Below, piece after piece: positions 15,614 to 29,206 of a stretch of 64,000 bases of DNA. How positions within the stretch are numbered: position 1 is the stretch's first letter; each line of letters starts with the position of its first letter. The DNA comes from Pyrinomonadaceae bacterium (GTDB lineage Bacteria > Acidobacteriota > Blastocatellia > Pyrinomonadales > Pyrinomonadaceae): contig DATFDT010000053.1 of NCBI GenBank assembly GCA_035251975.1, forward strand, positions 762 to 64,761, in the 5' to 3' direction. The notes under the pieces were generated by a model, which had not been told where the DNA came from, ran no database searches, and saw only the letters and a list, made by a program, of their open reading frames with translations. Position numbers and translations under genes: made by a program.

Positions 15614-15630
15614 TTCTCTTAACTAGTTTC

Positions 15631-15722
15631 TTCTCTGTGCAACCTCTGTGTTCTCTGTGGTTGTTTTTTCTAAGGTACAGCGAACCACAGAGACACAGAG
15701 AACACAGAGGTTGCACAGAGAA
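15631..15722. repeat. Family A hairpin element, copy 3
   Basis: TTCTCTGTGCAACCTCTGTGTTCTCTGTGG ... CCACAGAGACACAGAGAACACAGAGGTTGCACAGAGAA. The left arm lacks one heptamer. Confidence 0.9.
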
Positions 15723-15726
15723 GATC

Positions 15727-16953
15727 TCACTTCTTCGCAGCGAACCGTTCGTTAACTTCGGATCCATTTGCAATGATGAACCTGAGGAGCTCACAGATGG
15801 CGGAAATCTGTTCAGAATCAACGGCTGTACCTGTGGGTAATGCGACCACTCGCTCCGCTACCTGCTCAGTAACCGGTAACCTCGAGCCGGCGTTGGGATC
15901 GTCAGTTCGGTAAGGCTCCATTTGATGACAACCGGGATAGAAGTACCGCCGCGCGAGAACTTTTTCCGCGTGCAGCAACTCAACTACCTGATCACGCGTG
16001 ACGCGATTCTTCTCGTCATTAATTTCGATAATTACATATTGGTAGTTGCCTTTGTTTTCAGTGTCGTAGTTGATCAAACTCAGGCCGTCGACATTTGCCA
16101 GCTCCGCTGCATACTGTTGATAGTTGCGTTGATTGATATCGATGAAGTCCTGCATGCTTTCGAGATTCGTGAGACCGAACGCAGCCGAAACCTCATTTAG
16201 CTTCCCATTCGTTCCGATATAGTCTGTTTGATCGTAGTTAGAGAAACCAAAATTTTTCATCAACCGCATCTTAGCGGCGAGCTCGGAATCGTTCGTGACA
16301 ACTGCGCCGCCCTCCATTGAGTTGATGAACTTCGTCGCGTGGAAACTGAATACTTCAGCATCGCCGAAGCGACCAATCATGCCGTCTCCATGAGAACAGC
16401 CAAAGGCGTGAGCGGAATCGAAAAGGAGCTTCAGACCGCGTCGCGTAGCGATCTCCTCCAGCGCTTCAACCTCACAGGCGCGACCGAAAACATGAACCGG
16501 CAGGATGCCTGTCGTTCGCGGAGTGATCAACTGTTCGACGAGCGTAGGATCGATGTTGTATGTGTTTCTATCGATGTCACAGAAGACTGGCGTAATCCCC
16601 TGCCACTTGAGCGCATGGGCAGTAGCAATGAAAGTGAACGAGGGCACGATTACTTCGCCGCTGAGATTCAATGCTCGAATCGCAATCTCGAGAGCGACTG
16701 TGGCATTGCACATCGCGACGCAGTGTTCGACGCCAACAATCTCTGCTATCCGTTTTTCGAAATCACTGACGTAACGGCCGCCATTCGTAAGCCAATGTCG
16801 ATCGAGGATATCCCCAAGCCGTTTCTCAAACTCCTGTCGATTGCCGATATTGGGCCGGCCTACGTGTAACGGTTCAGCGAACGCAGCGTCGCCGCCGAAA
16901 TATGCCAGATCGGAAACGGTAGACTTAAGCTGGTCCTGTTTTACAGCGGACAT
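15727..16953 (-). CDS. DegT/DnrJ/EryC1/StrS-family PLP-dependent NDP-sugar aminotransferase
   Basis: 408 aa. FSFHATKFINSMEGGAVVT contains the Schiff-base Lys in its usual context. CNATVALEIAIRAL is the N-terminal family region. Confidence 0.85.
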   Translation of the reverse strand: MSAVKQDQLKSTVSDLAYFGGDAAFAEPLHVGRPNIGNRQEFEKRLGDILDRHWLTNGGRYVSDFEKRIAEIVGVEHCVAMCNATVALEIAIRALNLSGEVIVPSFTFIATAHALKWQGITPVFCDIDRNTYNIDPTLVEQLITPRTTGILPVHVFGRACEVEALEEIATRRGLKLLFDSAHAFGCSHGDGMIGRFGDAEVFSFHATKFINSMEGGAVVTNDSELAAKMRLMKNFGFSNYDQTDYIGTNGKLNEVSAAFGLTNLESMQDFIDINQRNYQQYAAELANVDGLSLINYDTENKGNYQYVIIEINDEKNRVTRDQVVELLHAEKVLARRYFYPGCHQMEPYRTDDPNAGSRLPVTEQVAERVVALPTGTAVDSEQISAICELLRFIIANGSEVNERFAAKK

Positions 16954-17009: not shown

Positions 17010-17564
17010 CTAAACAAGTGCGGCAAACTCAACTTTCAGGAGTTCGTAAAGCTTGTGGTCGTACCAGACTCCAGCCTTCTGAAACTCTTCACGTTGCTCG
17101 CCAATGTATCTGAAGCCGAGCCGTTTGATCAGATTCTCAGAAGCTTTATTTACAGAAAAATGACTGACAAAAACCTTGTGAAGTCCGAGCTCTTGAAACG
17201 CAAACTCGAGCACGCGCTTGCCGGCCTCGGTCATAATACCCTGGCCCTGGTAACGACGGCCCAACCAGTAAGCCAGCTCAGCTTTGTTGTAAGTCAGAGC
17301 TCGATGACTACGCACAACACCAATGATACTGAATATACCGCAGAATGAATCATCCTTGAATATCGCCCACGTGATTCCTTTACCCGTCTCAATTCTGGCC
17401 TGTTCATTCTTCAAGAACTCCACGGTTTGAGCGCGATCGGTGTGCGCCTCCCAGGCCATGTATTTGGAAATCTCGGGATCGGAAATATCCGGCCAGATCA
17501 GATCGAGATCGGCAGGCTCCAACGGCCGCAGCAGAAGGTGCTCAGTCTCGAGTACGAGATTCAA
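17010..17564 (-). CDS. GNAT-family N-acetyltransferase (RimJ/RimL-like)
   Basis: LLLRPLEPADLDL..., and the acetyl-CoA-binding region LGRRYQGQGIMTEAGKRVLEFAF. The ORF track starts at 17636, inside the loop of repeat A4. I prefer the TTG at 17564 (AAAAGGAG 13 nt upstream), but the start is uncertain. Confidence 0.7.
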   Translation of the reverse strand: MNLVLETEHLLLRPLEPADLDLIWPDISDPEISKYMAWEAHTDRAQTVEFLKNEQARIETGKGITWAIFKDDSFCGIFSIIGVVRSHRALTYNKAELAYWLGRRYQGQGIMTEAGKRVLEFAFQELGLHKVFVSHFSVNKASENLIKRLGFRYIGEQREEFQKAGVWYDHKLYELLKVEFAALV

Positions 17565-17597
17565 TTTCTTTCGTCGACTCCTTTTAGCTTCATGCTC

Positions 17598-17681
17598 TTC
17601 TCTGTGTAACCTCTGTGTTCTCTGTGGTTGTATCATTCGTTAACCACAGAGACACAGAGGACACTGAGGTTGCACAGAGAA
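17598..17681. repeat. Family A hairpin element, copy 4
   Basis: TTCTCTGTGTAACCTCTGTGTTCTCTGTGG ... CCACAGAGACACAGAGGACACTGAGGTTGCACAGAGAA. Confidence 0.9.
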
Positions 17682-17691
17682 GACAGAAGTC

Positions 17692-18621
17692 CTAGCTCTC
17701 TAACAGCGTGGCGTATCCAAACCCCTCTACTCCAAACCCATTCCCGTTATAAAACATCAGCGTGCGGCCATTCGCGACCGCCACCGCGGGGTAAGCAATC
17801 ATTTTTGAATCCCAACCGTCTTCAGAAGGATCGATTCCAGCCTGACTATCATCTCTGGACCATCGCTTCATATCGTCGGAAGAGGCATACCCGATTCGAT
17901 AAGCAGTTTCACCATCGCGAAAGTTACGACTGCCGCGGTAGCAGAACCACATGTGATATCGCTCCGCGATCTTTAACACAGTCGGTCTGGTTATAGCCTC
18001 ATAATCCGTCCGCTGACAAATTGCCGGCTCCTGAGTTGGAGTCCAATTGATGCCGTCGTTCGAGTGAGCATATCTGATGTCATAAACATGCTCATGCTTT
18101 CCGTCGACGTCGAGCCAGCCGGTTCCCGAGCCGTACCACATGTGCCAATCATTACCCTCGCGCAACACTGTGGGCGAAGTAGCCGAATAAGGATCGTGCA
18201 AACTTCTCGACAGAATCGGCCCCTCGCTGATCTTAGTGAACGTCTCTCCACCATCATCGCTAATCGCGAGGCCGGTGGAATTGATGTAGGGAACTGACGC
18301 CGATCGCGACCAGCCGCTGTAGTAAAGGAAGACCTTGTTTCCGTCCCTGATTGCGGCGCTGGGCATGATACCGTGCTCATCAAACGTGCCTGGTTTTCCT
18401 GGTTCGAGTAAGGGATCGGAATGCAAACGAACGACTCTGCTCGGGTCGTCGATGTCGAGATCAATGAAGCTGGTCAAGCTTAGATTCGGTTGCGGGCGCG
18501 ACGAGAAATAGACTCGAATAACATCGTCACACACTAAAGGAGTCGGTACCTGCGCATGAGTCTTCATCCAACCGCCAGCGCCGTTGGGTGAAAAAACCAA
18601 TCCCTTCTTTTGCCATTTCAT
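17692..18621 (-). CDS. Hypothetical cytoplasmic protein, beta-propeller glycosidase/glycan-phosphorylase-like fold (tentative)
   Basis: 309 aa from the ATG at 18621 (MKWQKKGLVF). Earlier track start codons overlap the upstream gene. Blade-like segments recur (VFLYYSGW, WHMWYGSG, YHMWFCYRG, LMFYNGNG). No signal peptide. Confidence 0.5.
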   Translation of the reverse strand: MKWQKKGLVFSPNGAGGWMKTHAQVPTPLVCDDVIRVYFSSRPQPNLSLTSFIDLDIDDPSRVVRLHSDPLLEPGKPGTFDEHGIMPSAAIRDGNKVFLYYSGWSRSASVPYINSTGLAISDDGGETFTKISEGPILSRSLHDPYSATSPTVLREGNDWHMWYGSGTGWLDVDGKHEHVYDIRYAHSNDGINWTPTQEPAICQRTDYEAITRPTVLKIAERYHMWFCYRGSRNFRDGETAYRIGYASSDDMKRWSRDDSQAGIDPSEDGWDSKMIAYPAVAVANGRTLMFYNGNGFGVEGFGYATLLES

Positions 18622-18638
18622 GAGAATCAGGTGGAGGA

Positions 18639-19652
18639 CTATTCCTTGAGATCCCTTAAAGCTGCCTCGCGGACCACCTGGTCCAACCATGTATGCATGC
18701 TTAGACCTGTCTTTTCTCGCGCTTGCTCAGCGAGCGATTTTGTTTCGGGTGTCACACCTTCCATCTGTCCGAGATACCTGGTTCTGTACGTGCCTCCTCT
18801 TGGACCAGGGATCTCGAAATCGAAATCCGCGGTTGGTTCACCGTCACCAACAGTAAACGTAATCAAATAAAAGACACCGCCGATTACCCATCGCAAAGAA
18901 ACGTGGCGAGCTTCAACCGGCATTTGGTCCAGTGGCACTGGAGCGAGAAACTGCTTGTTTGTCGTAACTAGGATTTTGGCAAACTGCGTCTCACGCAGCC
19001 ACGGCGGCATGCTTTCGTCACCGACGACGATCTTTGCGCCGATCTTGCTGACGCGAACCATTTCTGCGAGCGCACGCTTGATGTCGGAAAACTCACCCAA
19101 TCCGCCGAAGCTGTAGACAGCGTCGAAATATTTATCCGGGTACGGAAGATAAGAAGCATTCGACACGCAATGTGACGCGGGCACATCAGTTCCGGATAAT
19201 CGCTGACGATTTCTGTCTAACATTTGCACCGCGATGTCCTGGAGACAAAGCTGTCCTTGTGTTCCGAGTCGCCGGGCGATGATTTCCGAATCGCGGCCGG
19301 TTCCGGCTGCTACTTCGAGCACGCGAGATGAAGGCTGTAACGCGAGCGAGTCGATGAACTCGTTGCGTAGTTTTTGCTCGTCTTCGTAGTGAGTCTTGAA
19401 AGTGAGATGGAGATTGTTGTCGTAAGCCTCAGCTCGTCCGTCGTAGAAGGCACGCGCATCCTGATCCTGCTTCGGCAATTCACGCGGGAAGGTGAGATCA
19501 GGCACTCCGTGCGTTATCGGATACTCGGCCCCATCCGGCGAAACCAGAACTCCGGAAACGATCTCGTCGTCCATTTCTTCCGCGATCGATTTAATGCTCA
19601 AAGGCTGCCGCGTCTCAGGGCACACATATAGATTGGCGTGTTCACGCTTCAT
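18639..19652 (-). CDS. SAM-dependent methyltransferase with N-terminal Trm112-like zinc-ribbon-type segment and C-terminal extension
   Basis: N-terminus LYVCPETRQPL...YPITHGVPDL (Trm112p-like). Motif I VLEVAAGTGRDS. FDAVYSFGGLGEF. About 110 aa of extra C-terminus. Confidence 0.75.
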   Translation of the reverse strand: MKREHANLYVCPETRQPLSIKSIAEEMDDEIVSGVLVSPDGAEYPITHGVPDLTFPRELPKQDQDARAFYDGRAEAYDNNLHLTFKTHYEDEQKLRNEFIDSLALQPSSRVLEVAAGTGRDSEIIARRLGTQGQLCLQDIAVQMLDRNRQRLSGTDVPASHCVSNASYLPYPDKYFDAVYSFGGLGEFSDIKRALAEMVRVSKIGAKIVVGDESMPPWLRETQFAKILVTTNKQFLAPVPLDQMPVEARHVSLRWVIGGVFYLITFTVGDGEPTADFDFEIPGPRGGTYRTRYLGQMEGVTPETKSLAEQAREKTGLSMHTWLDQVVREAALRDLKE

Positions 19653-19949: not shown

Positions 19950-20624
19950 CTACTGCATCTTTGTCAGACGCAAAAACGCGGAGGAGTCGAGCCGGAATTT
20001 CGGTGTATCCGGGGAGATATAGACGCTCTTCGGTTCTGCGTTTTTGGTAATTAGACAGCTAGCCCCCACAAAGCTTTCAGCGCCAATCGTGACTTCGTGA
20101 CCAATCGTCGCGCTTACGCCAATGAAGCAGTGACTTCCGACAACAGTATTGCCGGAAATCACAGCGTGCCCTGCGATATAGCAGTGATCACCGATCGTGG
20201 CGTGATGGCCGATGTGGTTACCACTCCAGATAAACACATCGTTCCCAACCCTCGCACACGGTTGAATCGTCGCAAACTCCAGCACAAAACAATTATCCCC
20301 TACCTCGACATTCCCGACGTTTGCGGCACGTGAGCTGATATAGCTTACAAGCTCGTAATTCTTAGCTTTGGCTTCCGCGTACTTCTGTGCTCTAAACCGG
20401 TTTAGATCCTGGTACCCAACCGCGACAAACATCTTATGATCGCCCGGAGGATACTTCTCTTCAATCTTTTCGAAAGGAATAACCGGCAACCCCTGCTTTT
20501 CCGGCGCCGTCACGTATGCATTATCGACTGTAAAAGCAACGATCTCGTGCGGGCTATCATTGGTAAAGTAAAAGAACGCCTCGTCAGCAATTTTGCCGGC
20601 ACCAAAAATAATTACCTTGCTCAT
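19950..20624 (-). CDS. Left-handed beta-helix sugar acyl/acetyltransferase, NeuD/PglD family
   Basis: N-terminal Rossmann-like VIIFGAGKIADE followed by hexapeptide repeats (IGDHCYIAGHAVISGNTVVGSHCFIGVSATIGHEVTIG). Start overlaps the upstream stop by 1 nt (TAATG). Confidence 0.8.
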   Translation of the reverse strand: MSKVIIFGAGKIADEAFFYFTNDSPHEIVAFTVDNAYVTAPEKQGLPVIPFEKIEEKYPPGDHKMFVAVGYQDLNRFRAQKYAEAKAKNYELVSYISSRAANVGNVEVGDNCFVLEFATIQPCARVGNDVFIWSGNHIGHHATIGDHCYIAGHAVISGNTVVGSHCFIGVSATIGHEVTIGAESFVGASCLITKNAEPKSVYISPDTPKFRLDSSAFLRLTKMQ

Positions 20625-22177
20625 TAATTAACACCTTCGGATTGAAGATACTTTTGCGTGAGATGCCGGCGATCGACCTTCCCGTTAGGATTCTTCGGCA
20701 ATACGTCTTCTCGATGATAAACGGCCGGGATCATGTAGTCGGGAATGATCGAACGAAGATCCTGTTTGATTTGCACATCGTCACGATCGGCTTTGGTTGA
20801 AACAACAGCGACGATCCGGCTCAACTGACCGTTTCGGCTGTGCAGGACCGCCGCTTCCGAGACGTAATCAAGACAATTGAGCGCGGCCTCAATCTCTTCC
20901 AACTCGATGCGGTATCCCATGTGTTTGATCTGATTATCTCTGCGCCCGCGTATGTAAAGCTTGCCGTCAGCCGGATCGACACTCGCCAGATCGCCCGTCT
21001 TATACATCAACTCAGGATAAGCTGAGTGAAGCGGGTTCTGTACAAAGCTCAAGTTCGTTCGTTCCGAATCGTTGTAATAACCTTTTCCCACGTTTGGACC
21101 AAGCAAACACAGCTCGCCGGTTTCTCCTTCAGGCAGTACCGCGCCGCTTTCGTCCACGATCAGAAAAGAAAAATTCTCAGCGATATGGCCCAATGGCGGT
21201 AATCCCTGCAAGTTGTCGAAATCGCTGTCCGATAGCTTGTAGCTGGAGCAGATGCACGTGCATTCGGTTGGTCCGTACACGTTGAACAGCTCACTCCCTC
21301 GTGAATAGGCATCATAAAGCGCCTTGAGCTTGGCTTTCGGATAACCCTCGCCGCCGAACACGAAGCGCTTGATCGATTTCATCCGTTTGCCATCCGCCGC
21401 CTTCATGATTTGCAGAAAGATCAGCAGCGAAGGCACTGAGAACCACAACGTACATTTAGCTGCGTCGATCTTATCGACCAACAACTTCGGATCCTTCGCC
21501 TCGTCTTTCGTGAAGGGTACCAGCTTCGCGCCGTTGAAGAGTGAGGAATAGAGATCGAAGACAGAATTGTCGAAGTAGAGAGGATTGACGTTCGTCAGCG
21601 TGTCGCTGAATTCAATATTGAAGGTGTGACGACCCCACTCAATAAGGTTCAGGACGTTCGCGTGTGTCATCAAGGCGCCTTTGGGAATGCCGGTGGAGCC
21701 TGATGTAAACATGATGTAGGCGCCGTTTGATCCCGTGACACTGCTCGTCACTTGCAAATTAGAATCGTCGAACTCGTTGATCGAATCGGAGAGCAGTGTT
21801 TCTATGCCGAGTGCCGAGATTACGTCAATAAACCTGTCAATGAACTCTCCGTCGGCGAATACTAACCGCGGTTTACACGTCGAAAGAATTTTACGGAGTC
21901 GCTCGATCGGCGTGGCCGGATCGATCATGCAATAAATCGCTCCGATTTTCAGGCACGCAATGATACAGGCGAACGTATCAATCGACTTCTCACCTGAAAC
22001 ACAGACTACATCACCGTTCGTAACGTTCTCTTGTTGCAACAAGCGCGCGACGCGATTTGCTCGCTCATTGAGATCTCCGAACGTGACGGACTCGCTTTCG
22101 CTAAACCAAAGCGCAGTATGCTGCGATCGCTCTTCGACTATCTTTTGGAATCTGATACCGAGATTGTATTCGTACAT
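20624..22177 (-). CDS. Stand-alone adenylation enzyme (ANL superfamily, DltA/NRPS A-domain-like)
   Basis: A3 MFTSGSTGIPKG, A4 LYFDNSVFD (Asp retained), A5 NVYGPTECT, A7 YKTGDL, A8 GRRDNQIKHMGYRIELEEIE, A10 PKNPNGKVDR. Confidence 0.85.
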   Translation of the reverse strand: MYEYNLGIRFQKIVEERSQHTALWFSESESVTFGDLNERANRVARLLQQENVTNGDVVCVSGEKSIDTFACIIACLKIGAIYCMIDPATPIERLRKILSTCKPRLVFADGEFIDRFIDVISALGIETLLSDSINEFDDSNLQVTSSVTGSNGAYIMFTSGSTGIPKGALMTHANVLNLIEWGRHTFNIEFSDTLTNVNPLYFDNSVFDLYSSLFNGAKLVPFTKDEAKDPKLLVDKIDAAKCTLWFSVPSLLIFLQIMKAADGKRMKSIKRFVFGGEGYPKAKLKALYDAYSRGSELFNVYGPTECTCICSSYKLSDSDFDNLQGLPPLGHIAENFSFLIVDESGAVLPEGETGELCLLGPNVGKGYYNDSERTNLSFVQNPLHSAYPELMYKTGDLASVDPADGKLYIRGRRDNQIKHMGYRIELEEIEAALNCLDYVSEAAVLHSRNGQLSRIVAVVSTKADRDDVQIKQDLRSIIPDYMIPAVYHREDVLPKNPNGKVDRRHLTQKYLQSEGVN

Positions 22178-22196
22178 TCGCCTTTTATGCGTGGCC

Positions 22197-22298
22197 TTTT
22201 CTGTGCAACCTCTGAGTTCTCTGTGTCTCTGTGGTGAGTTTTGCTTCTGAATTAGTTAACCACAGAGACACAGAGAACTCAGAAGGTTGCACAGAGAA
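22197..22298. repeat. Family A hairpin element, copy 5 (long-loop form)
   Basis: TTTTCTGTGCAACCTCTGAGTTCTCTGTGTCTCTGTGG-TGAGTTTTGCTTCTGAATTAGTTAA-CCACAGAGACACAGAGAACTCAGAAGGTTGCACAGAGAA. Confidence 0.9.
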
Positions 22299-22310
22299 GA
22301 GGATGCTAGT

Positions 22311-23054
22311 TCAAACAATCAACCCGCCGTCCAGCTCAAAAACCTTGCCGTTGAAAAAATCATTTTGAATCACGCTGACGACGCCTTCTGCGATCTCGGC
22401 GGGTTTGCCTAATCGTCTGAGCGGAACCTTTTTCACTGTTTCGCGTAACGCCGCCTCGTTGACGGCGTTCTTTGTCGAGTCGGTATCGGTGAAACCGGGC
22501 GCGACAGCAATAACGCGAATACCCATTGGCCCAAGCTCTTTGGCCCATACGGCTGTCAACGCGTTCACTCCGGCTTTTGCGGCTGAATACGCCGACTGTC
22601 CCGCATTGCCACTGGATGAAACGGAGCTTATGTTTACAATCACGCCGCGCGTGCGCGTTGTGATCATCTTTTCAACCACACAAACGGTCATGTAGAAGAC
22701 GGAGTTTAGATCCGCGGCCATGACCTTGTTCCACATTCCGGCGTCGTGTCTTGCAACTCCCTCGGACGTGAGCTTGATGAGCGGTTCGCTGTAGAGAATG
22801 CCGGCATTGTTGATCAGGATATCTGCGGCTCCGAACTGCTCGTGATACTTGCCCGTTGCTTTGAGCACGTGGTCATAGTCAGACACGTCGCACTCGATAC
22901 AGTTCACGTTTTCTTTTTTTAGTTCATCAAAGCCGGCCGCATTGAGATCAAACACGGTTACGTTCGTGCCGTTCTCGATCAGCTTTTCGACGGTGGCTCG
23001 CCCGAGTCCGCGCACGCCGCCGGTGATAATGGCCTTCTTACCGCGAAGCTCCAT
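22311..23054 (-). CDS. Short-chain dehydrogenase/reductase, FabG-like (3-oxoacyl reductase family)
   Basis: GKKAIITGGVRGLGRAT, NNAG, catalytic YSAAKAG. 247 aa. Confidence 0.85.
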   Translation of the reverse strand: MELRGKKAIITGGVRGLGRATVEKLIENGTNVTVFDLNAAGFDELKKENVNCIECDVSDYDHVLKATGKYHEQFGAADILINNAGILYSEPLIKLTSEGVARHDAGMWNKVMAADLNSVFYMTVCVVEKMITTRTRGVIVNISSVSSSGNAGQSAYSAAKAGVNALTAVWAKELGPMGIRVIAVAPGFTDTDSTKNAVNEAALRETVKKVPLRRLGKPAEIAEGVVSVIQNDFFNGKVFELDGGLIV

Positions 23055-23055
23055 G

Positions 23056-23289
23056 CTAGCTCGTCACGCCCCTCTCTCTCAACACACGTTTGATCGCGCT
23101 CACGCTTTGCATGGCCACGATCTCGTCAAAACTCAATTGAACTTCGAAACCCTGTTCAAGAGCGACAATGAGTTCCATGTGCTTCAATGAATCCCAGGCG
23201 TCAACGTCCTTCATCGTCAGGTCATCTTTGATGTCCGACGCGGGCATCTGAAGGACCTCGGAGAGTAGATTCTCCACCTTTGCATCCAC
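23056..23289 (-). CDS. Acyl/peptidyl carrier protein
   Basis: 77 aa. Phosphopantetheine-attachment context DVDAWDSLKHMELIVALE (DSL serine). Lies 1 nt from the downstream SDR gene. Confidence 0.8.
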   Translation of the reverse strand: MDAKVENLLSEVLQMPASDIKDDLTMKDVDAWDSLKHMELIVALEQGFEVQLSFDEIVAMQSVSAIKRVLRERGVTS

Positions 23290-23341
23290 TTGCTGTGTTC
23301 ATCCTCCTGCCTTCTCAGAGATCGCTGAGAAGCATTTGCAT

Positions 23342-24301
23342 TCATCCAAACTCCCCGGCGCGGTAAGCGGGGAAGTAGCTGGTTGGTGGCAGGCGTCGTG
23401 CTTCTAATATTTCCTGGTACCGCTGCCTGTTCAAAATTCGACCGCAAAAGTAAACGGACCGAACTCCTGTTGACCAACCCTGCTTGAACCGGCTCAAACC
23501 TTGTTCTGCTGCACTAACGCCTGAGCCACTCCCCAAGTTGAGCCATGCGAATCCATGCTCGGCAAAATATCTAATGGAATGGTCAAACAACGCAAACGAC
23601 GCTCGCAACTCGTATCCAATCGAGTTATACGCACCAAGATGATAATAGGCGCGATTGCATTGGCCGTACCACAGTAGCATTCCAACTGTGTCGTCTTGAT
23701 GTACAGCGCGAAATACTACGATTCCCGGCACGCGCAACTGAGCTTCGAAAGACTCCCGCGAAAACGCCGTCATTCCCGTCAGGTTATGTCTCTCGATCAG
23801 TGTTGCGTAAAGCCTGGTCCAATCATCCAAAAAGTCGATCGGAGATTCGCATTCCTCGATGCGTAGTTCTCGCAGCGCCTTTCGCGCGTTGCGCCGGTGA
23901 TGAGAATTAACAAACGTATCCGGCGAACGGCTTAAATCAATCACATAGTGTTCCTTAAAAGGAAACGCGACATCGGGAAAGCAGTCTTTCAGATCGGTTG
24001 GAGCGTACTCTCCAAAAGGATCCGTCACCAGGAATACGCAAATCAGCTCGTCGCCGATGTTCTCCAGGTCAACATTGAGTCGCGACCAGTTTCGACAGGC
24101 AAACAAAGGATAGCAACCCATCGCATCACGCTCTCCCGTGTCTGGTATGGAACGCTCGAGAACCCAGCCGCCACTCTCAGGCAGATAACGCGGGCTGCCA
24201 AATTCACTCAGTGACTGGCAATACAGACCATGCAAGTATCCGGTCACTTCTTCCTGAGGAACTGGCATAAGATCGCTTTGCGTAAAAGTCAGCGCTCGCA
24301 C
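23342..24301 (-). CDS. GNAT-fold acyltransferase, FemAB/CelD-like
   Basis: 319 aa. VGMLLWYGQCNRAYYHLGAYNSIGYELRASFALFDHSIRYFAEHGFAWLNLGSGSG resembles the FemAB-type/BioF2-like acetyltransferase domain. Confidence 0.6.
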   Translation of the reverse strand: MRALTFTQSDLMPVPQEEVTGYLHGLYCQSLSEFGSPRYLPESGGWVLERSIPDTGERDAMGCYPLFACRNWSRLNVDLENIGDELICVFLVTDPFGEYAPTDLKDCFPDVAFPFKEHYVIDLSRSPDTFVNSHHRRNARKALRELRIEECESPIDFLDDWTRLYATLIERHNLTGMTAFSRESFEAQLRVPGIVVFRAVHQDDTVGMLLWYGQCNRAYYHLGAYNSIGYELRASFALFDHSIRYFAEHGFAWLNLGSGSGVSAAEQGLSRFKQGWSTGVRSVYFCGRILNRQRYQEILEARRLPPTSYFPAYRAGEFG

Positions 24302-24328: not shown

Positions 24329-25609
24329 CTACAACGCTCCGACTTGCTCCGTTTTCCACTTCAGATTGGGTTTGACGACTCCCGGCTCTCGCGCGTACTG
24401 GCTGACGACCCTTTCGTCCAAATCAAATATCTCGAATGTGACGGCACTCTCGTATTGATAAAGCACGGAGCTGAGATCTTTGATAACGAACACATTGAAG
24501 CGATGACGACCGACGTTCAACAAGTCGCCCGGCACATAACAGGTCGAGCGAAACAAACCCGCAGGCGAAGACCGCATGGACCATTCCGGATCGCCGCTGC
24601 CACTGCCTGTCGTAAAAGCCATAGCTTGCTGTTCGGTATACAGATGTAAAGTGATGTTTATGTTTGCACCTGGTTGCAGGTTCCAGTATTCAACATCGAT
24701 ACAAAACGGAGTCCTCGTCGTCAGGTGCTGACCTGAATCTTCATCTAGTGACCTTACCTGTACTCGATGCAATCGAACGGAATGATTGCCGGGCGCCGTC
24801 TCAATGTCAGGCCAAATCTCTTCGTCCGAGCTCTGGTTGCCAAACGAGTGGCTCAAATAATTTCTGACAACCGTTCCAGCGCTGCCATCGTCAGCAATCG
24901 ATCCGCCGTCGAGCCATAACGCTCGCTTGCACAAACTCTGGATCGCAATCATGTTGTGACTGACAAACAACACCGTGCGACCTTCACTCGCCACGTCGCT
25001 CATCTTTCCCAAACACTTCTTTTGAAACTGTGCATCACCGACAGCCAGAACCTCATCGACGATCAAAATCTCAGGCTCAAGATGCGAAGCAACAGCGAAA
25101 GCGAGCCGCATATACATTCCACTCGAGTAGCGCTTAACAGGCGTGTCAAGAAACCGCTCCAGTTCAGAAAAATCAACGATGCGATCGAATTTGGAATCGA
25201 TCTCGGTTTTCTTCATTCCGAGGATCGCGCCGTTCAAGTAGATGTTCTCTCTGCCGGTCAATTCGGGATGGAAGCCAGTGCCAACTTCGAGCAGACTCGC
25301 GACGCGGCCATAAAGCTCAACACGACCGGTGGTCGGCTCAGTTATCCGCGACAACACTTTCAGGAGGGTTGATTTGCCGGCGCCGTTACTGCCGATGATG
25401 CCGACTACTTCGCCTGGCTGCACGTCGAAGTTCGCGTCCTTGAGTGCCCAGATAGTGTCGGTATTTCGCCTGCCGTTGCCACTCCTGAGCCGCCGTATCG
25501 GAGCGCGGACGGCTTGAGTAATCGACTCTCGCAGCGTGTCATAAGCAGCTTCACGAGTGCCGATGGTGTATTGCTTTCCGAGGGTTGTGGCGCGAACGAT
25601 CGGTTTCAT
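24329..25609 (-). CDS. wzt: Polysaccharide ABC exporter ATP-binding protein Wzt with C-terminal glycan-binding-type extension
   Basis: Walker A GIIGSNGAGKSTLLK, signature YSSGMYMRLAFA, Walker B ILIVDEVLAVGD. A ~170-aa beta-rich C-terminal domain follows the NBD. Confidence 0.85.
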   Translation of the reverse strand: MKPIVRATTLGKQYTIGTREAAYDTLRESITQAVRAPIRRLRSGNGRRNTDTIWALKDANFDVQPGEVVGIIGSNGAGKSTLLKVLSRITEPTTGRVELYGRVASLLEVGTGFHPELTGRENIYLNGAILGMKKTEIDSKFDRIVDFSELERFLDTPVKRYSSGMYMRLAFAVASHLEPEILIVDEVLAVGDAQFQKKCLGKMSDVASEGRTVLFVSHNMIAIQSLCKRALWLDGGSIADDGSAGTVVRNYLSHSFGNQSSDEEIWPDIETAPGNHSVRLHRVQVRSLDEDSGQHLTTRTPFCIDVEYWNLQPGANINITLHLYTEQQAMAFTTGSGSGDPEWSMRSSPAGLFRSTCYVPGDLLNVGRHRFNVFVIKDLSSVLYQYESAVTFEIFDLDERVVSQYAREPGVVKPNLKWKTEQVGAL

Positions 25610-25614
25610 TGAGC

Positions 25615-26538
25615 TTAGACGATATCAGCGAAACTCTTCTCCATGCGGCGAAACGAGTAAGAGGCGTAGATTAGTAGAACCAATGTAATTACCGTCGAAA
25701 AGGCCAAAGCGATCCAGTTGAACGGGCGCCCCAACAAGGCAGAGCGAAAACCTTCGATTATTCCCGTCATCGGATTCAATAAAAGCAGTGAACGTAACTT
25801 CACCGGCAGGAAACTGGCCGGGTAGATCACGGGTGAGAGATACATCCACAACTGGACCATGAAGGGCAGTGCGAAGCGAACGTCACGATATTTTACATTC
25901 AGCGCCGACAGCCACATTCCCGTTCCAAGTGCGAGTAGCGTCGTTAACAGCACCATCACGGGAAACATCAGAATGTTCAACGTGATTCCGACGCCGTAAT
26001 AAATCATCAGCAGCACGAGGATGACGAACGCGATTGCAAAATCGACCAACCCGGCAGCCACGGCAGCGCCGGGAATAATCATTCTCGGAAAATAGACTTT
26101 GGTGATCAGGTGGGCGCTGCCCACGAGGCTGTTACCACTGTTGGTTATGGCGTTTGAAAAAAAGGTCCACGCCAGAAGACCCGTGAAGGCAAAAATCGGA
26201 TACGGGACATTGTCTGAGGGAACGCCGGCCAGCCGCCCGAAGAACAAGGTGAAGATCAGCATTGTAAAGAGCGGTTGAATGATGGCCCATGCGACACCGA
26301 GCTCGGTCTGTTTGTACCGGACTTTAACGTCACGCCAGGTTAAGAAATAAAGTAATTCGCGAAAGGCCCACAGGTCGCGTAGATCGAGAGCGCTCCACCC
26401 TTTATTTGGTTCGATGACGACTAATGGCTCGTCAGGTAAACCTGCAACTGTATCGAGCGGATTTTCTAGCTTTCTGTTTTGGGTGGGGTTAGCTGTGGAT
26501 ATCGGCGCGGTCTCGTTATTGGTGCTGGAAATACCCAT
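25615..26538 (-). CDS. wzm: Polysaccharide ABC exporter permease (ABC-2 type) Wzm
   Basis: FRELLYFLTWRDVKVRYKQTELGVAWAIIQPL signature followed by about 6 hydrophobic segments. Lies 5 nt from wzt. Confidence 0.85.
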   Translation of the reverse strand: MGISSTNNETAPISTANPTQNRKLENPLDTVAGLPDEPLVVIEPNKGWSALDLRDLWAFRELLYFLTWRDVKVRYKQTELGVAWAIIQPLFTMLIFTLFFGRLAGVPSDNVPYPIFAFTGLLAWTFFSNAITNSGNSLVGSAHLITKVYFPRMIIPGAAVAAGLVDFAIAFVILVLLMIYYGVGITLNILMFPVMVLLTTLLALGTGMWLSALNVKYRDVRFALPFMVQLWMYLSPVIYPASFLPVKLRSLLLLNPMTGIIEGFRSALLGRPFNWIALAFSTVITLVLLIYASYSFRRMEKSFADIV

Positions 26539-26611: not shown

Positions 26612-26711
26612 CTCTGCGTTATCTCTGCGTCCTCTGCGCCTCTGCGGTAAGACAAAACGAAAGCGCATATAAACCGCAGAGGCGCCGAAGACGCAGAGAC
26701 AACGCAGAGAA
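26612..26711. repeat. Family B heptamer-array hairpin element, copy 1
   Basis: CTCTGCGTTATCTCTGCGTCCTCTGCGCCTCTGCGG-TAAGACAAAACGAAAGCGCATATAAA-CCGCAGAGGCGCCGAAGACGCAGAGACAACGCAGAGAA. Confidence 0.9.
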
Positions 26712-26717
26712 CGCGCC

Positions 26718-27152
26718 TCAAGGAACTCGGGTGGCGTTGAAGGTCCCAACCTCCGACCGAAACTTATACGGGCTTTCCTCTTCGTCGACACTCGTGACAA
26801 AGATCAGTTTACCCGTCATCGCGTTCTTCGAAGTAAATTTACCTTTGAAGATGACCGTTCCCAACTCTCGACAGCAAGTGCCGATCGGCAACTCCACTTC
26901 ACCGGAAAAGCTGATACGGTCATTGGTTAACTGTGACCAGGCTGCCGGCTGTGGATCTGCGACCGGCTTGTTATCCGGCGCAGTGTCCTGAAGCAGAAAC
27001 GAAGCGACGCCTTTGGGTTGAGCCACCAATATTAAGTTCTTTTCCACGCCCGCCATAACAAACTTTACTTGCCAGCGACCGACGGGATCAGCAGCCGGTT
27101 GCTGACCGGCAAGCAACGAGATGAGCAGTAAGCAAAGGAGACCGAGTTTCAT
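26718..27152 (-). CDS. Hypothetical small secreted protein
   Basis: 144 aa with signal peptide MKLGLLCLLLISLLAG. Beta-rich, with no motif I recognise. Confidence 0.55.
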   Translation of the reverse strand: MKLGLLCLLLISLLAGQQPAADPVGRWQVKFVMAGVEKNLILVAQPKGVASFLLQDTAPDNKPVADPQPAAWSQLTNDRISFSGEVELPIGTCCRELGTVIFKGKFTSKNAMTGKLIFVTSVDEEESPYKFRSEVGTFNATRVP

Positions 27153-27155
27153 TTT

Positions 27156-27869: not shown

Positions 27870-27880
27870 ACGTGTTCAGA

Positions 27881-27903
27881 TACCACAGATTACACGGATT
27901 TTA
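27881..27903. repeat. Family C half-element (single arm)
   Basis: ATACCACAGATTACACGGATTTT matches one arm of ATCCACAGATTACACAGATTC. No partner arm is present. Confidence 0.6.
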
Positions 27904-27904
27904 C

Positions 27905-27942
27905 AAAAAACATCCCGTCCGCCTGGAAGACGAACGGGATGT
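27905..27942 (-). terminator. Rho-independent terminator downstream of the beta-helix gene
   Basis: The minus strand reads CATCCCGTTCG-TCTTCCAGG-CGGACGGGATG followed by TTTTTTG. Confidence 0.75.
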
Positions 27943-27979
27943 GTTATGCGTGGACAGTTAAGTTCGGGGGGTTCGGAAC

Positions 27980-29196: not shown

Positions 29197-29206
29197 TTGC
29201 TGCGCT

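What the first reader, a model, noticed from the sequence alone, without database searches (positions are those of the whole stretch)
19950..24301. Five-gene carrier-protein-dependent acylation cassette inside the glycan operon (FemAB-like GNAT, ACP, FabG-like SDR, stand-alone adenylation enzyme, NeuD/PglD-like acyltransferase)
The five genes are consecutive on the minus strand. Most are tightly packed (1-nt gap between SDR and ACP, 1-nt overlap between the adenylation and NeuD-like genes). The exception is repeat A5, which sits between the adenylation enzyme and the SDR. The adenylation enzyme has the full A3-A10 motif set and keeps the Asp of the A4 FDxS motif (LYFDNSVFD). In NRPS and DltA-type enzymes this Asp contacts the alpha-amino group, which suggests an amino-acid substrate. 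The 77-aa carrier has a DSL serine.

Two different acyltransferase folds (GNAT/FemAB-like and left-handed beta-helix) plus a ketoreductase-type SDR accompany them. The cassette lies between wzm/wzt and a DegT aminotransferase sub-operon. Known analogies include DltA/DltC D-alanylation. Another is the ACP- and ligase-like rfb genes proposed for the tetronate N-acyl group of perosamine in Vibrio cholerae O1.

My inference is that an amino sugar of this glycan carries an unusual N-acyl group. It could be an aminoacyl, a 3-hydroxyacyl, or a two-part N-(hydroxyacyl)-aminoacyl substituent installed by the two transferases. I do not recognise this exact five-gene combination as a described pathway.
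Basis: partly seen in the sequence, partly recalled or inferred. Interest (0 to 1): 0.75.

Follow-up and report, generated by a model that had tools for sequence, protein, structure and literature searches.

The report
Carrier-protein module that acylates an amino sugar
Inside a cell-surface sugar-polymer operon of a soil acidobacterium sits a widespread but unstudied gene module that appears to load an amino acid on a small carrier protein, modify it and attach it to an amino sugar; the neighbouring FemX-like enzyme is a separate, probably tRNA-dependent, step.

Summary
Comparison with about 165 related loci shows they are not one unit.

- **The recurrent module is four genes:** ACP, NAD-type SDR, stand-alone adenylation enzyme, and a distinct subtype of NeuD/PglD/VioB-family left-handed beta-helix (LbH) transferase. 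It is found in Acidobacteriota, Bacteroidota (cultured Niastella caeni), Verrucomicrobia, Fibrobacterota, Gammaproteobacteria and Acidimicrobiia.
- **Pocket code:** all 68 orthologs keep DNFF[x]GVCIK, including the amino-binding Asp.
- **Gene after the LbH:** it usually encodes an amine-capping enzyme (GNAT, formyltransferase or methyltransferase).
- **Loader swap:** in one locus an FkbH-type glyceryl loader replaces the adenylation enzyme.
- **The "FemAB-like GNAT" is independent.** It also occurs, with the DesI-like aminotransferase, in many loci without any ACP. Non-homologous WbqC replaces it in others. It models as FemX (TM 0.72) and keeps FemX's Phe-Lys motif.

Best reading: dTDP-4-amino-4,6-dideoxyhexose receives an amino-acid-derived acyl group from the ACP through the LbH enzyme. 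The FemX-like enzyme adds a separate aminoacyl residue, and a GNAT caps the free amine. The amino acid is not identified; threonine-like is a guess.

I class it as a new variant of a known kind. The closest described systems are the Pseudomonas syringae viosamine island and the Vibrio cholerae O1 tetronate genes.

The parts
23342..24301 (-). FemX-like tandem-GNAT transferase (PF13480 Acetyltransf_6). The likely true start is Met12 at 24268, giving 308 aa. It is a separate step from the ACP module and is probably aminoacyl-tRNA dependent.
   Evidence: Pfam PF13480. The AF2 model has pLDDT 91. The best Foldseek matches are FemX (TMq 0.72), Sbb17/Sba18 and MprF. A profile of the family finds only FemX in the PDB by sequence, and the invariant F261-K262 aligns with FemX F304-K305. 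The gene is present without ACP in most related loci.
23056..23289 (-). Dedicated 77-aa acyl/aminoacyl carrier protein with a DSL phosphopantetheine site.
   Evidence: PP-binding 36.4 bits. ACP models score better than DltC. DS[LMF] is invariant in 59 orthologs.
22311..23054 (-). Classical SDR, NAD(H)-type, of the 3-hydroxyacyl/3-oxoacyl-thioester oxidoreductase kind. It is always adjacent to the ACP.
   Evidence: adh_short 158 bits. It scores below the FabG equivalog cut-offs. The best PDB matches are 4nbu and 4nbw, which I recall as NADH-dependent FabG homologues, and 3-hydroxyacyl-CoA dehydrogenase type II, which is NAD-dependent. Asp/Glu at the end of beta2 is present in 59 of 60 aligned orthologs, and Tyr and Lys are invariant.
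22195..22299 (.). REP-like hairpin repeat inserted between the SDR and the A-enzyme. It is not part of the enzymology.
   Evidence: It is a member of a repeat family with copies at 15622-15724, 17596-17690 and 26612-26713. No T-run follows it. Terminator-like sites are not enriched in the region. The element is absent at this position in related loci.
20624..22177 (-). Stand-alone NRPS-type adenylation enzyme (aminoacyl-carrier-protein ligase) with specificity code DNFFVGVCIK.
   Evidence: TIGR01733 is above its cut-off and the DltA equivalogs are below theirs. PDB relatives are NRPS A domains, DltA and prolyl-carrier ligases. The code is conserved in 68 of 68 orthologs.
19950..20624 (-). NeuD/PglD/VioB-family left-handed beta-helix N-acyltransferase of the module-specific subtype. 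It is the presumed acyl-ACP:amino-sugar transferase.
   Evidence: TIGR03570 163.5 bits against 160.8. PDB relatives are PerB and PglD, and the catalytic His aligns. It is 60-76% identical to LbH genes in ACP-containing loci and 37-49% identical to those in loci without ACP. Class-specific GYQDLN and C-terminal motifs are present.
18639..19652 (-). UbiE-type methyltransferase with a Trm112-like zinc-ribbon N-terminus. It frequently travels with the module.
   Evidence: Pfam and NCBIfam hits. It co-occurs in the window, L004, L044, L050, L051, L071, L082, L086 and many metagenome loci.
17692..18690 (-). GH130-like beta-propeller, conserved with the FemX-like gene and DegT in about 44 loci. It may be a phosphorylase-type glycosyl transfer enzyme.
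   Evidence: Weak GH130/GH32 Pfam hits. Beta-1,2-mannobiose phosphorylase is the best PDB match. Census.
17010..17636 (-). Acetyl-CoA-type GNAT (Acetyltransf_3). It is the proposed N-acetyl cap for the free amine of the ACP-delivered group.
   Evidence: PF13302 105.9 bits. An extra GNAT (this type, PF12746 or c65) is present in 17 of 19 ACP-module loci with enough flank and in none of about 30 loci without ACP.
15727..16953 (-). DesI/VioA-like PLP aminotransferase that makes the dTDP-4-amino-4,6-dideoxyhexose acceptor.
   Evidence: PF01041 372 bits. TIGR04427 DesI scores 535 bits (cut-off 650) and the next family scores 225 bits. RmlB and RmlD are above their cut-offs at 32497-34373, and RmlC is at 9027-9560.
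24329..26538 (-). wzt (24329-25609) and wzm (25615-26538), the ABC exporter of the glycan.
   Evidence: Pfam and NCBIfam hits. They are syntenic in related loci.

Best explanation
The window encodes a dTDP-sugar pathway. RmlB (with RmlC and RmlD for rhamnose) and a DesI/VioA-like aminotransferase produce dTDP-4-amino-4,6-dideoxyhexose, most likely viosamine. This sugar is then decorated by two separate acylation systems.

**(1) A four-gene carrier-protein module.**
- The stand-alone adenylation enzyme activates an amino acid with ATP and loads it as a thioester on the dedicated 77-aa ACP.
- The adjacent NAD-type SDR acts on the beta-carbon of the tethered group. It may oxidise a beta-hydroxyl, or it may carry out a redox-mediated stereo-inversion.
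- The module-specific NeuD/PglD/VioB-type LbH enzyme transfers the group from the ACP to an amine of the nucleotide sugar.
- The new free alpha-amine is then capped. Here the cap is added by the GNAT at 17010-17636; elsewhere a PF12746 GNAT, a formyltransferase or a methyltransferase does it.
- Methyl groups are added by the UbiE-type methyltransferase.

**(2) The FemX-like tandem GNAT directly after wzt.** It works independently of the ACP. It probably adds an aminoacyl residue from aminoacyl-tRNA to the same sugar, so the final substituent would be a short capped peptide-like N-acyl chain.

**Status of each step.**
- Shown: gene identities, motif conservation and the co-variation patterns.
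- Inferred: ACP as the donor for the LbH enzyme, the amino-acid nature of the substrate, the NAD preference and beta-carbon chemistry of the SDR, tRNA dependence of the GNAT, and the order of the two transfers.
- Guessed: a threonine-like substrate.
For: **Module recurrence.** ACP-SDR-A-LbH is found in about 22 of 85 genome-derived loci anchored on the GNAT and in about 30 metagenome loci anchored on the LbH, down to 40-48% identity. It also occurs in cultured Niastella caeni and in an Acidimicrobiia contig.

**The LbH belongs to the module.** LbH genes next to ACP-SDR-A (or, in L041, ACP-SDR) are 60-76% identical to the window's; the Porticoccaceae locus L085, whose whole module is divergent, is the exception at 41%. 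LbH genes in loci without ACP are 37-49% identical. The module-linked genes carry class-specific motifs.

**The substrate is an amino acid.**
- TIGR01733 scores above its cut-off.
- The Asp235 equivalent is invariant, and the code DNFF[IVTSAG]GVCIK is found in 68 of 68 orthologs.
- As an internal control, other A domains in the same alignment give what I recall as the canonical Gly and Ser codes.
- The pocket region is closest to prolyl-carrier ligases and DltA.
- An extra GNAT is present in 17 of 19 module loci and in none of about 30 loci without the module.
- A formyltransferase, or a methyltransferase in its place, follows the LbH in other module loci.

**The SDR acts on a beta-hydroxy/oxo thioester.** Its best PDB relatives are 4nbu and 4nbw (NADH-dependent FabG homologues, from memory) and 3-hydroxyacyl-CoA dehydrogenase II. 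An acidic residue at the end of beta2 is present in 59 of 60 orthologs. In L041 an FkbH-type glyceryl loader (the c38 cluster; its L066 member matches TIGR01686 at 303 bits) replaces the A-enzyme next to ACP-SDR-LbH, and that locus has no extra GNAT.

**The GNAT is independent.** It occurs without the module in most loci. It is polyphyletic with respect to the module. WbqC substitutes for it. It has the FemX fold and FemX's F-K motif.

**Acceptor sugar.** The aminotransferase is DesI-like, and RmlB, RmlC and RmlD are present.

**Precedents.**
- The P. syringae viosamine island (vioA, vioB, vioR, vioS, acp, vioM) makes N-(3-hydroxybutanoyl)-2-O-methyl-viosamine, which caps a rhamnan (PMC3927599).
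- Amide-linked Gly, N-acetyl-Gly, N-acetyl-L-Ser and (N-acetyl-)D-allo-Thr occur in E. coli O antigens (PMC7685785).
Against: - No biochemical data exist for any member of these families.
- All characterised NeuD/PglD/PerB/VioB/AntD-type enzymes that I know of use acyl-CoA, not acyl-ACP.
- The specificity code matches no code I can assign, and its pocket is very hydrophobic. A substrate without a beta-hydroxyl (Val, Ile or Pro-like) would leave the SDR unexplained.
- The FkbH loader swap rests on a single locus.
- The extra-GNAT correlation is weaker in the distant metagenome set, at about 18 of 30 by tblastn. Several of the exceptions carry a formyl- or methyltransferase instead.
- With one aminotransferase there is only one sugar amine, so the order and sites of the two transfers are conjecture. 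The FemX-like enzyme could instead esterify a hydroxyl, as MprF does.
- The SDR might act after transfer, on the sugar-bound group.
Confidence: 0.55

Rival explanations
1. All five genes form one carrier-protein-dependent unit, and both transferases (the FemAB-like GNAT and the LbH) take their acyl or aminoacyl groups from the same ACP to build a two-part N-(hydroxyacyl)-aminoacyl group.
For: The five genes are contiguous and tightly packed here and in about 20 acidobacterial loci. FemAB-like proteins are also found next to ACP and ligase genes in exosortase-type EPS loci (my recollection of the TIGR03019/TIGR03098 context, not tested here).
Against: The GNAT occurs with DegT in about 60 loci that have no ACP, SDR or A-enzyme. 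Unrelated WbqC takes its place in 16 module loci. It does not form a module-specific clade. Its closest structures are all aminoacyl-tRNA-dependent enzymes, and the FemX F304-K305 motif is kept. It does not match any NCBIfam family, TIGR03019 included.
Confidence: 0.15
2. The module makes a plain hydroxyacyl group, such as 3-hydroxybutanoyl, as in P. syringae modified viosamine. The A-enzyme would load acetoacetate or a hydroxy/keto acid in place of the KASIII VioS. The SDR would reduce it, and the LbH would transfer it to the sugar amine.
For: The parts list is the same as the viosamine island apart from the loader (PMC3927599). The SDR is most similar to 3-oxoacyl/3-hydroxyacyl thioester oxidoreductases. 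An FkbH loader for glycerate, a non-amino acid, can feed the same ACP-SDR-LbH set.
Against: The A-enzyme passes the amino-acid adenylation model and keeps the amino-binding Asp in 68 of 68 orthologs. The SDR has the NAD-type acidic residue rather than the NADPH-type basic residues of biosynthetic reductases. An amine-capping enzyme (GNAT, formyltransferase or methyltransferase) co-occurs with the A-enzyme version and is missing from the FkbH version.
Confidence: 0.15
3. A Dlt-like system. The A-enzyme and carrier would D-alanylate (by ester linkage) a cell-envelope polymer, as DltA/DltC or AlmE/AlmF do, and would be unrelated to the nucleotide-sugar step.
For: Automatic annotations call the orthologs DltA. 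The DltA models give high partial scores, and DltA is among the best PDB matches.
Against: The protein scores below both DltA cut-offs: 323 against 560, and 341 against 476. Mapped by hand, its code differs from the DltA code at every variable position (alignment plus my recollection of the DltA sequence). No DltB/DltD or AlmG-type membrane acyltransferase is in the locus. The invariant partners are instead a cytoplasmic sugar N-acyltransferase and an SDR.
Confidence: 0.05

Closest known systems
Pseudomonas syringae pv. tabaci viosamine island (vioA, vioB, vioR, vioS, acp, vioM, vioT), with its homologues in the P. aeruginosa PAK flagellin glycosylation island
   Same: Both have a dTDP-viosamine aminotransferase, a VioB-type hexapeptide acyltransferase, a dedicated ACP, a FabG-like SDR and a methyltransferase. 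In both, rhamnose genes lie nearby. In P. syringae the modified amino sugar caps a rhamnan (PMC3927599).
   Different: In P. syringae the loader is a KASIII condensing enzyme and the product is 3-hydroxybutanoyl. Here the loader is an NRPS-type amino-acid adenylation enzyme. The SDR here looks NAD-type. An extra amine-capping GNAT and a FemX-like (or WbqC) enzyme accompany the module. Export is through Wzm/Wzt rather than flagellin O-glycosylation.
Vibrio cholerae O1 tetronate genes (VC0248-VC0252, wbeK-O/rfbK-O) for N-acylation of perosamine
   Same: ACP and ligase-like genes lie immediately after wzm/wzt in an ABC-transporter-dependent O-antigen locus. They serve N-acylation of a 4-amino-4,6-dideoxyhexose (PMC3441752). 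That pathway is also proposed from homology only.
   Different: The product there is a dihydroxy acid (3-deoxy-L-glycero-tetronate). From memory, the set includes LuxC/LuxE-like and iron alcohol dehydrogenase-like enzymes that are absent here. No FemX-like or amine-capping enzyme is described. I could not test homology between WbeL and this A-enzyme.
FemX (Weissella viridescens) and Orf11/Sba18/Sbb17 of streptothricin-type pathways
   Same: The window GNAT has the same tandem-GNAT fold (TMq 0.72) and keeps the Phe-Lys motif. Orf11 transfers Gly from Gly-tRNA to an amino-sugar amine (PMC12945691).
   Different: Sequence identity is only about 15%. The genomic context here is a nucleotide-sugar/glycan operon, not peptidoglycan or antibiotic synthesis. 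Neither the donor nor the acceptor has been tested.
Carrier-protein routes that tailor an amino or hydroxy acid before transfer: zwittermicin ZmaJ/ZmaH/ZmaG (seryl-ACP oxidation), FkbH/FkbK (glyceryl-ACP oxidation), NovH/NovJ/NovK (beta-hydroxy-tyrosyl-S-carrier oxidation by SDRs) and butirosin BtrI/BtrJ/BtrH (aminoacyl-ACP transferred to an aminoglycoside amine). All are cited from memory.
   Same: The logic is the same: load on a dedicated carrier, oxidise at the beta-carbon, then hand over to an acceptor. An FkbH homologue actually substitutes for the A-enzyme in a related locus.
   Different: Those systems feed polyketide, aminocoumarin or aminoglycoside antibiotics and use other transferase folds. 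Here the transferase is a PglD-like LbH acting on a cell-surface glycan precursor.
DltA/DltC and AlmE/AlmF/AlmG
   Same: Each pairs a stand-alone aminoacyl-carrier ligase with a small carrier to decorate an envelope polymer.
   Different: The window A-enzyme scores below the DltA family cut-offs. There is no membrane acyltransferase partner. The partners here are an SDR and a cytoplasmic LbH.

Membership tests
NRPS-type amino-acid adenylation domain (TIGR01733) | Whole-protein score above the curated cut-off, with core motifs A3-A10 | tested here: met
   346.5 bits against 317.4. The motifs SGSTGIPKG, NVYGPTE, YKTGDL, GRRDNQIKHMGYRIELEEIE and NGKVDR are visible in the translation.
NRPS-type amino-acid adenylation domain (TIGR01733) | Asp235 (GrsA numbering), which binds the substrate amino group, and Lys517 | tested here: met
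   D and K are present in 68 of 68 orthologs. The mapping was checked against what I recall as the canonical Gly and Ser codes, which other A domains in the same alignment reproduce.
DltA, D-alanine-D-alanyl carrier protein ligase (TIGR01734 / NF003417) | Equivalog score above the cut-off | tested here: not met
   323 bits against 559.85, and 340.8 against 476.
NeuD/PglB/VioB sugar N-acyltransferase (TIGR03570) | Family score above the cut-off, a PglD-type N-terminal domain and the catalytic His | tested here: met
   163.5 bits against 160.8, which is marginal. The PglD_N hit is weak: 19.2 bits against 23.4. His140 aligns with the His of the PglD EHE motif and is invariant in 11 LbH sequences.
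NeuD/PglB/VioB sugar N-acyltransferase (TIGR03570) | Acyl-CoA as donor, as in all characterised members | not testable with these tools
   Gene context suggests an ACP-bound donor instead. This needs an enzyme assay.
FabG 3-oxoacyl-ACP reductase (TIGR01830 and equivalogs) | Equivalog score above the cut-off and NADPH-type cofactor residues | tested here: not met
   179 bits against 297.75. An acidic residue at the end of beta2 is present in 59 of 60 orthologs, which predicts NAD(H). The Ser-Tyr-Lys catalytic residues of classical SDRs are present.
Acyl carrier protein (PF00550) | PP-binding domain with a conserved Ser in DSL | tested here: met
   36.4 bits against 20.8. DS[LMF] is present in 59 of 59 orthologs. 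The score is below the cut-offs for housekeeping AcpP equivalogs.
FemABX aminoacyl-tRNA-dependent transferases | Tandem GNAT fold and the C-terminal Phe-Lys motif | tested here: met
   Foldseek to FemX gives E 1.6e-13 and TMq 0.72. The family profile finds only FemX in the PDB, and F261-K262 aligns with F304-K305. The role of K305 is cited from memory.
FemABX aminoacyl-tRNA-dependent transferases | Use of aminoacyl-tRNA as donor | not testable with these tools
   The only support is from fold, motif and independence from the ACP genes.
P. syringae-type viosamine island | KASIII (VioS) as the source of the acyl-ACP | tested here: not met
   No ketoacyl synthase is among the ORFs from 870 to 31930 that were scanned with Pfam. 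An adenylation enzyme occupies the loader role.
P. syringae-type viosamine island | VioA-type aminotransferase plus VioB-type LbH plus ACP plus SDR plus methyltransferase | tested here: met
   The comparison is with PMC3927599.

The most novel reading that the evidence does not exclude
A very widespread soil and aquatic pathway builds a short, capped, peptide-like side chain on dTDP-viosamine. It combines two non-ribosomal peptide-bond chemistries on a nucleotide sugar. One is a FemX-like (or WbqC) aminoacyl-tRNA-dependent transfer. The other is an NRPS-like A/ACP system whose aminoacyl group is redox-tailored by an NAD-dependent SDR, for example L-Thr converted to 3-oxo or D-allo-Thr. A PglD-family LbH enzyme using an aminoacyl-ACP donor then delivers that group. 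This donor class has never been shown for the PglD family.
Probability: 0.3. Interest if true: 0.8.

Novelty: new variant of a known kind. Interest (0 to 1): 0.6.

Why it matters
- **A new donor class for a well-studied enzyme family.** If the model holds, PglD/VioB-type sugar N-acyltransferases can take carrier-protein-bound, amino-acid-derived donors.
- **tRNA-dependent enzymes in surface glycans.** FemX-type enzymes would be acting on nucleotide sugars of ordinary surface glycans, not only on peptidoglycan and antibiotics.
[quoted passage not shown] As far as I know, and as far as the papers searched here show, their transferases are largely unassigned. These families, and the interchangeable WbqC, are concrete candidates.
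- **The module is abundant.**
  - The search with the window A-enzyme returned 7871 proteins with E at or below 1e-20 among the 8000 candidates scored, and the best 120 were all at least 63% identical to it. That total is not specific to this module, because it includes other adenylation enzymes.
  - The FemX-like gene is in 368 species genomes.
  - The orthologs carry only automatic names such as "DltA".
  - Correct annotation would therefore affect many genomes.
- **It can be tested.** A cultured carrier, Niastella caeni, makes experiments possible.

Tried and rejected
- **Literature.** Seven full-text searches looked for a described ACP + adenylation + NeuD-like + FemAB-like cassette in glycan loci. 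They returned only the P. syringae and V. cholerae analogues and reviews. PMC2168959 (dTDP-Qui4N pathways in S. dysenteriae 7 and E. coli O7) is not held.
- **Substrate from the code.** DNFF[x]GVCIK matches no code I can recall. It partly resembles the Ile/Val codes, and the Thr code with Asn and Phe swapped between positions 236 and 278. This is left as a guess. My first mapping of position 278 was off by three residues and was corrected by counting in GrsA (between).
- **Link to E. coli O antigens that carry amino acids.** A blastn "distant" search of the gammaproteobacterial module (L085) against 5,426 E. coli genomes found nothing.
- **Is WbqC a diverged FemX-like protein?** hhalign gave probability 0.3%, and WbqC has no PDB relative by sequence. 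Rejected.
- **Does the FemX-like GNAT co-evolve with the ACP module?** NJ tree and identity statistics say no. Rejected.
- **Does the 22195-22299 hairpin split the cassette into two transcription units?** No T-run follows it, and terminator- and promoter-like sites are not enriched. This is not supported, but it was not tested by expression data.
- **More FkbH-ACP-SDR-LbH loci.** The metagenome scan found none beyond L041.
- **NCBIfam family for the GNAT.** Only a spurious hit was returned, so it is not TIGR03019.

Full report
**1. Observation**

The five minus-strand ORFs are present at the reported coordinates. Their family assignments hold:
- 19950-20624 is a NeuD/PglB/VioB-family hexapeptide transferase (TIGR03570, 163.5 bits against a cut-off of 160.8).
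- 20624-22177 is an NRPS-type adenylation enzyme (TIGR01733, 346.5 bits against 317.4). It falls below both DltA cut-offs.
- 22311-23054 is a classical SDR. It falls below the FabG equivalog cut-offs.
- 23056-23289 is a 77-aa PP-binding carrier with DSL.
- 23342-24301 is a PF13480 (Acetyltransf_6) GNAT.

The spacing is as described: a 1-nt gap, a 1-nt overlap, and a hairpin repeat at 22195-22299. wzt and wzm lie directly upstream.

Downstream lie a UbiE-type methyltransferase (18639-19652), a GH130-like propeller (17692-18690), a second GNAT (17010-17636) and a DegT aminotransferase (15727-16953). The DegT is by far closest to DesI, the dTDP-4-dehydro-6-deoxyglucose 4-aminotransferase (535 bits; the next family scores 225). 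RmlB, RmlD and RmlC are also in the window. The acceptor is therefore most likely dTDP-4-amino-4,6-dideoxyglucose (viosamine) or an epimer.

**2. What related loci show**

The GNAT family is large. There are 3095 clusters with E < 1e-5, and the best 120 are all at least 60% identical. Relatives occur in 368 species genomes of Acidobacteriota, Cyanobacteria, Chloroflexota, Planctomycetota, Verrucomicrobiota, Fibrobacterota and others.

I fetched 85 loci and scored them with the window proteins. I then clustered all their ORFs. Four architectures appear:
- **Class I:** GNAT - ACP - SDR - (GH130-like) - A-enzyme - LbH.
- **Class II:** GNAT - (small methyltransferase) - LbH, with no ACP, SDR or A-enzyme.
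- **Class III (cyanobacteria, Chloroflexota):** GNAT - small Acetyltransf_3 GNAT - DegT, with no LbH.
- **A rare class:** an FkbH-domain protein, two carriers, an acyl-CoA dehydrogenase and a different A-enzyme.

The LbH splits cleanly with the classes. It is 60-76% identical to the window's in class I (41% in the divergent Porticoccaceae locus L085) and 37-49% identical in class II. Class I LbH genes also carry class-specific GYQDLN and C-terminal RLDSxxFLR motifs.

The GNAT does not split with the classes. Mean identity is 59% within class I and 56% between classes. On an NJ tree the class I GNATs fall into at least four clades plus five singletons.

A second scan, anchored on the class I LbH in metagenomes, recovered the ACP-SDR-A-LbH module down to 40-48% identity. 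In 16 such loci, including cultured Niastella caeni, the gene in the GNAT's place is WbqC (PF08889). WbqC shows no detectable homology to the GNAT. Every module locus with enough upstream flank has either the GNAT or WbqC, and never both.

Conclusion: the functional module is four genes, ACP-SDR-A-LbH. The FemAB-like GNAT is part of a broader GNAT + DegT core.

**3. The adenylation enzyme**

PDB relatives are NRPS A domains, DltA and stand-alone prolyl-carrier ligases.

I mapped the ten specificity positions onto GrsA numbering by hand, from motif alignment. I recall the GrsA sequence from memory. The result is D235 N236 F239 F278 V299 G301 V322 C330 I331 K517.

In an alignment of 75 A-enzymes from the fetched loci, all 68 orthologs have DNFF[I/V/T/S/A/G]GVCIK. 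Unrelated A domains in the same alignment give DILQLGMVWK and DVWHISLVDK. I recognise these as the canonical glycine and serine codes, which supports the column mapping.

Three things point to an amino-acid substrate that is the same across phyla:
- The amino-binding Asp is retained.
- The protein passes the amino-acid adenylation model.
- The pocket is strictly conserved.

I cannot name the amino acid. The pocket is hydrophobic with one Asn. It partly resembles the Ile/Val codes, and the Thr code (DFWNIGMVHK) with Asn and Phe exchanged between positions 236 and 278. These known codes are recalled from memory.

**4. Independent evidence that the carried group has a free amine**

In the GNAT-anchored set, 17 of 19 class I loci with enough flank encode an additional acetyl-CoA-type GNAT. 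It is a PF12746 GNAT, a relative I call c65, or the Acetyltransf_3 type found in this window at 17010-17636. None of about 30 class II loci has one.

In distant module loci that lack such a GNAT, the gene after the LbH is a formyltransferase (L140; PF00551 and PF02911) or a 390-aa zinc-ribbon methyltransferase. All of these are amine-modifying enzymes.

In class II the LbH itself, and in class III the small GNAT, would be the acetyl cap.

**5. The SDR**

Its best solved relatives are 4nbu and 4nbw, which I recall as NADH-dependent FabG homologues, and the NAD-dependent 3-hydroxyacyl-CoA dehydrogenase type II. An acidic residue at the end of strand beta2 is present in 59 of 60 aligned orthologs. 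By the standard SDR cofactor rule (established knowledge) this predicts NAD(H). Tyr and Lys are invariant.

In one Thermoguttaceae locus (L041) an 816-aa ORF occupies the loader position next to ACP-SDR(48%)-LbH(60%). It belongs to the FkbH-like cluster whose L066 member matches the FkbH domain model (TIGR01686, 303 bits against 146.65). There is no A-enzyme hit in that locus, and there is no extra GNAT.

FkbH enzymes load glycerate on carriers, and the 3-hydroxyl is then oxidised. Seryl-ACP is treated the same way in zwittermicin synthesis. NovJ/NovK SDRs oxidise a beta-hydroxy-aminoacyl carrier thioester. All three precedents are from memory. By analogy the SDR here most likely acts on a beta-hydroxyl of the tethered amino acid. 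It might oxidise it, or it might use a transient 3-oxo intermediate to invert stereochemistry.

N-acetyl-D-allo-threonine, D-allo-threonine, N-acetyl-L-serine, glycine and N-acetyl-glycine are known amide substituents in E. coli O antigens (PMC7685785). A threonine-like substrate is therefore an attractive guess, but it is unproven. The loader swap is a single observation.

**6. The FemX-like GNAT**

An AlphaFold2 model (pLDDT 91) matches W. viridescens FemX best (E 1.6e-13, TMq 0.72). The next matches are the aminoacyl-tRNA-dependent peptide synthases Sbb17 and Sba18 bound to streptothrisamine, and then the aminoacyl-phosphatidylglycerol synthase domains of MprF. Acetyl-CoA tandem GNATs score far lower (TMq about 0.4).

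A sequence profile of the family finds only FemX in the whole PDB (E 8e-4). It aligns the family's invariant Phe261-Lys262 (SRFKQGW) with FemX Phe304-Lys305. I recall these residues as important for catalysis and for binding the tRNA terminus.

A FemX-like enzyme, Orf11, transfers glycine from Gly-tRNA to an amino-sugar amine in a streptothricin-type pathway (PMC12945691). This precedent, the structural match, and the GNAT's independence from the ACP genes all point to an aminoacyl-tRNA donor.

WbqC, its positional substitute, was named from the E. coli O121 cluster, from memory. That O antigen carries N-acetyl-glycine (PMC7685785). WbqC genes also sit next to an unusual ProRS and tRNA in other bacteria (PMC10404621). 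Both points are only hints.

**7. Proposed mechanism and its limits**

The proposed route is:
1. dTDP-glucose is converted by RmlB to the 4-keto-6-deoxy sugar.
2. The DesI-like aminotransferase converts this to dTDP-Qui4N.
3. The FemX-like enzyme adds an aminoacyl residue.
4. The A-enzyme, ACP and SDR prepare a tailored aminoacyl thioester, and the LbH transfers it.
5. The GNAT at 17010-17636 acetylates the remaining amine.
6. Methyltransferases finish the group.

The order of steps 3 and 4 is inferred from one consistency argument. Class II and class III loci have one aminotransferase, the FemX-like enzyme and one acetyltransferase. The simplest consistent reading is aminoacylation first and capping second. 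The alternative is that the LbH acylates the sugar amine and the FemX-like enzyme acts on the new amine or on a hydroxyl. This is not excluded.

All characterised PglD/PerB/VioB/AntD-type enzymes that I know use acyl-CoA. ACP as donor is therefore an inference from the strict linkage of genes.

**8. Comparison with known systems**

The closest described system is the P. syringae viosamine island. Its genes are vioA, vioB (LbH), vioR (3-oxoacyl-ACP reductase), vioS (KASIII), acp, vioM and vioT. It makes dTDP-N-(3-hydroxybutanoyl)-2-O-methyl-viosamine, which caps a rhamnan on flagellin (PMC3927599). The present module shares every part except the loader: an adenylation enzyme instead of KASIII. 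It adds the amine cap and the FemX-like or WbqC partner.

The V. cholerae O1 tetronate genes lie in the same position after wzm/wzt and are likewise assigned by homology only (PMC3441752).

The window system is not a Dlt system. It falls below the DltA cut-offs and has no membrane partner. It is also not a member of the KASIII-type viosamine island.

I class it as a new variant of a known kind: carrier-protein-dependent N-acylation of a 4-amino-4,6-dideoxyhexose.

**9. Verdict**

The chemistry class is right and the unit boundaries are wrong.
- No description of the cassette was found in the held literature, but that library is incomplete.
- Interest is moderate to high, for four reasons. The module is abundant. 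It is mis-annotated as DltA. It may extend the donor range of a well-studied transferase family. It offers candidates for the unassigned enzymes that attach amino acids to surface glycans.

Noticed in passing
window 15622-15724, 17596-17690, 22195-22299, 26612-26713; also 19718-19787/19848-19917: A family of REP-like hairpin repeats with CACAGAGA/TCTCTGTG-rich arms sits in intergenic gaps of the minus-strand glycan operon. A separate long inverted repeat (70-nt arms, 86% complementary) lies between the LbH gene and the methyltransferase gene. No T-run follows the 22195-22299 hairpin, and related loci lack the element at that position.
   Followed up: partly
window 26718-31930 (ORFs 29207-31930, 27980-28984, 26718-27152); L001-L004 and about 24-35 other loci: A large HYR/DUF11 surface protein, a right-handed beta-helix protein and a small 144-160-aa ORF are conserved immediately upstream of wzm/wzt in many related loci. 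The glycan may therefore decorate, or act together with, this surface protein, as in an S-layer-like glycoprotein.
   Followed up: partly
window 24329-25609 (Wzt residues ~255-426): Wzt carries a C-terminal extension of about 170 aa with no Pfam match. In other ABC-dependent systems such extensions bind the chain-terminating cap. The modified amino sugar could be that cap, as modified viosamine is in P. syringae.
   Followed up: no
L086 8299-9036 (Niastella caeni) and L120, L130, L137, L139, L140, L144, L145, L149, L150, L151, L153, L157, L162, L166, L167: WbqC (PF08889) occupies the position of the FemX-like GNAT next to the ACP module. The two are mutually exclusive and show no detectable homology. 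WbqC has no relative of known structure by sequence.
   Followed up: partly
L041 10265-14590; L066 and L070; L085 17674-19407: FkbH-domain glyceryl loaders occur in the same slot as the adenylation enzyme. They appear with ACP-SDR-LbH in L041, and with two carriers, an acyl-CoA dehydrogenase and a cupin in L066 and L070. This suggests a family of interchangeable acyl-donor modules feeding the same sugar.
   Followed up: partly
window 17692-18690 and about 44 related loci: A GH130-like five-bladed propeller is conserved with the FemX-like gene and DegT. Its best solved relative is beta-1,2-mannobiose phosphorylase. In some loci it is inserted between the SDR and the A-enzyme. Its role is unknown.
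   Followed up: no
L029 and L043 (Sedimentisphaerales, Pirellulales), A-domain proteins near 13943 and 14854: Multi-domain A-proteins of 1126 and 879 aa, with canonical glycine-like and serine-like specificity codes, lie a few kb from the FemX-like gene in Planctomycetota loci.
   Followed up: no
window 13895-15613: A 572-aa ORF inside the glycan operon has no Pfam or NCBIfam match. It has a relative in only two of the fetched loci.
   Followed up: no
window 18639-19652: The UbiE-type methyltransferase has a Trm112-like zinc-ribbon N-terminus (NF038101, E 9e-7). Analogous zinc-ribbon methyltransferases (342 and 390 aa) recur in class II loci and in distant module loci.
   Followed up: no
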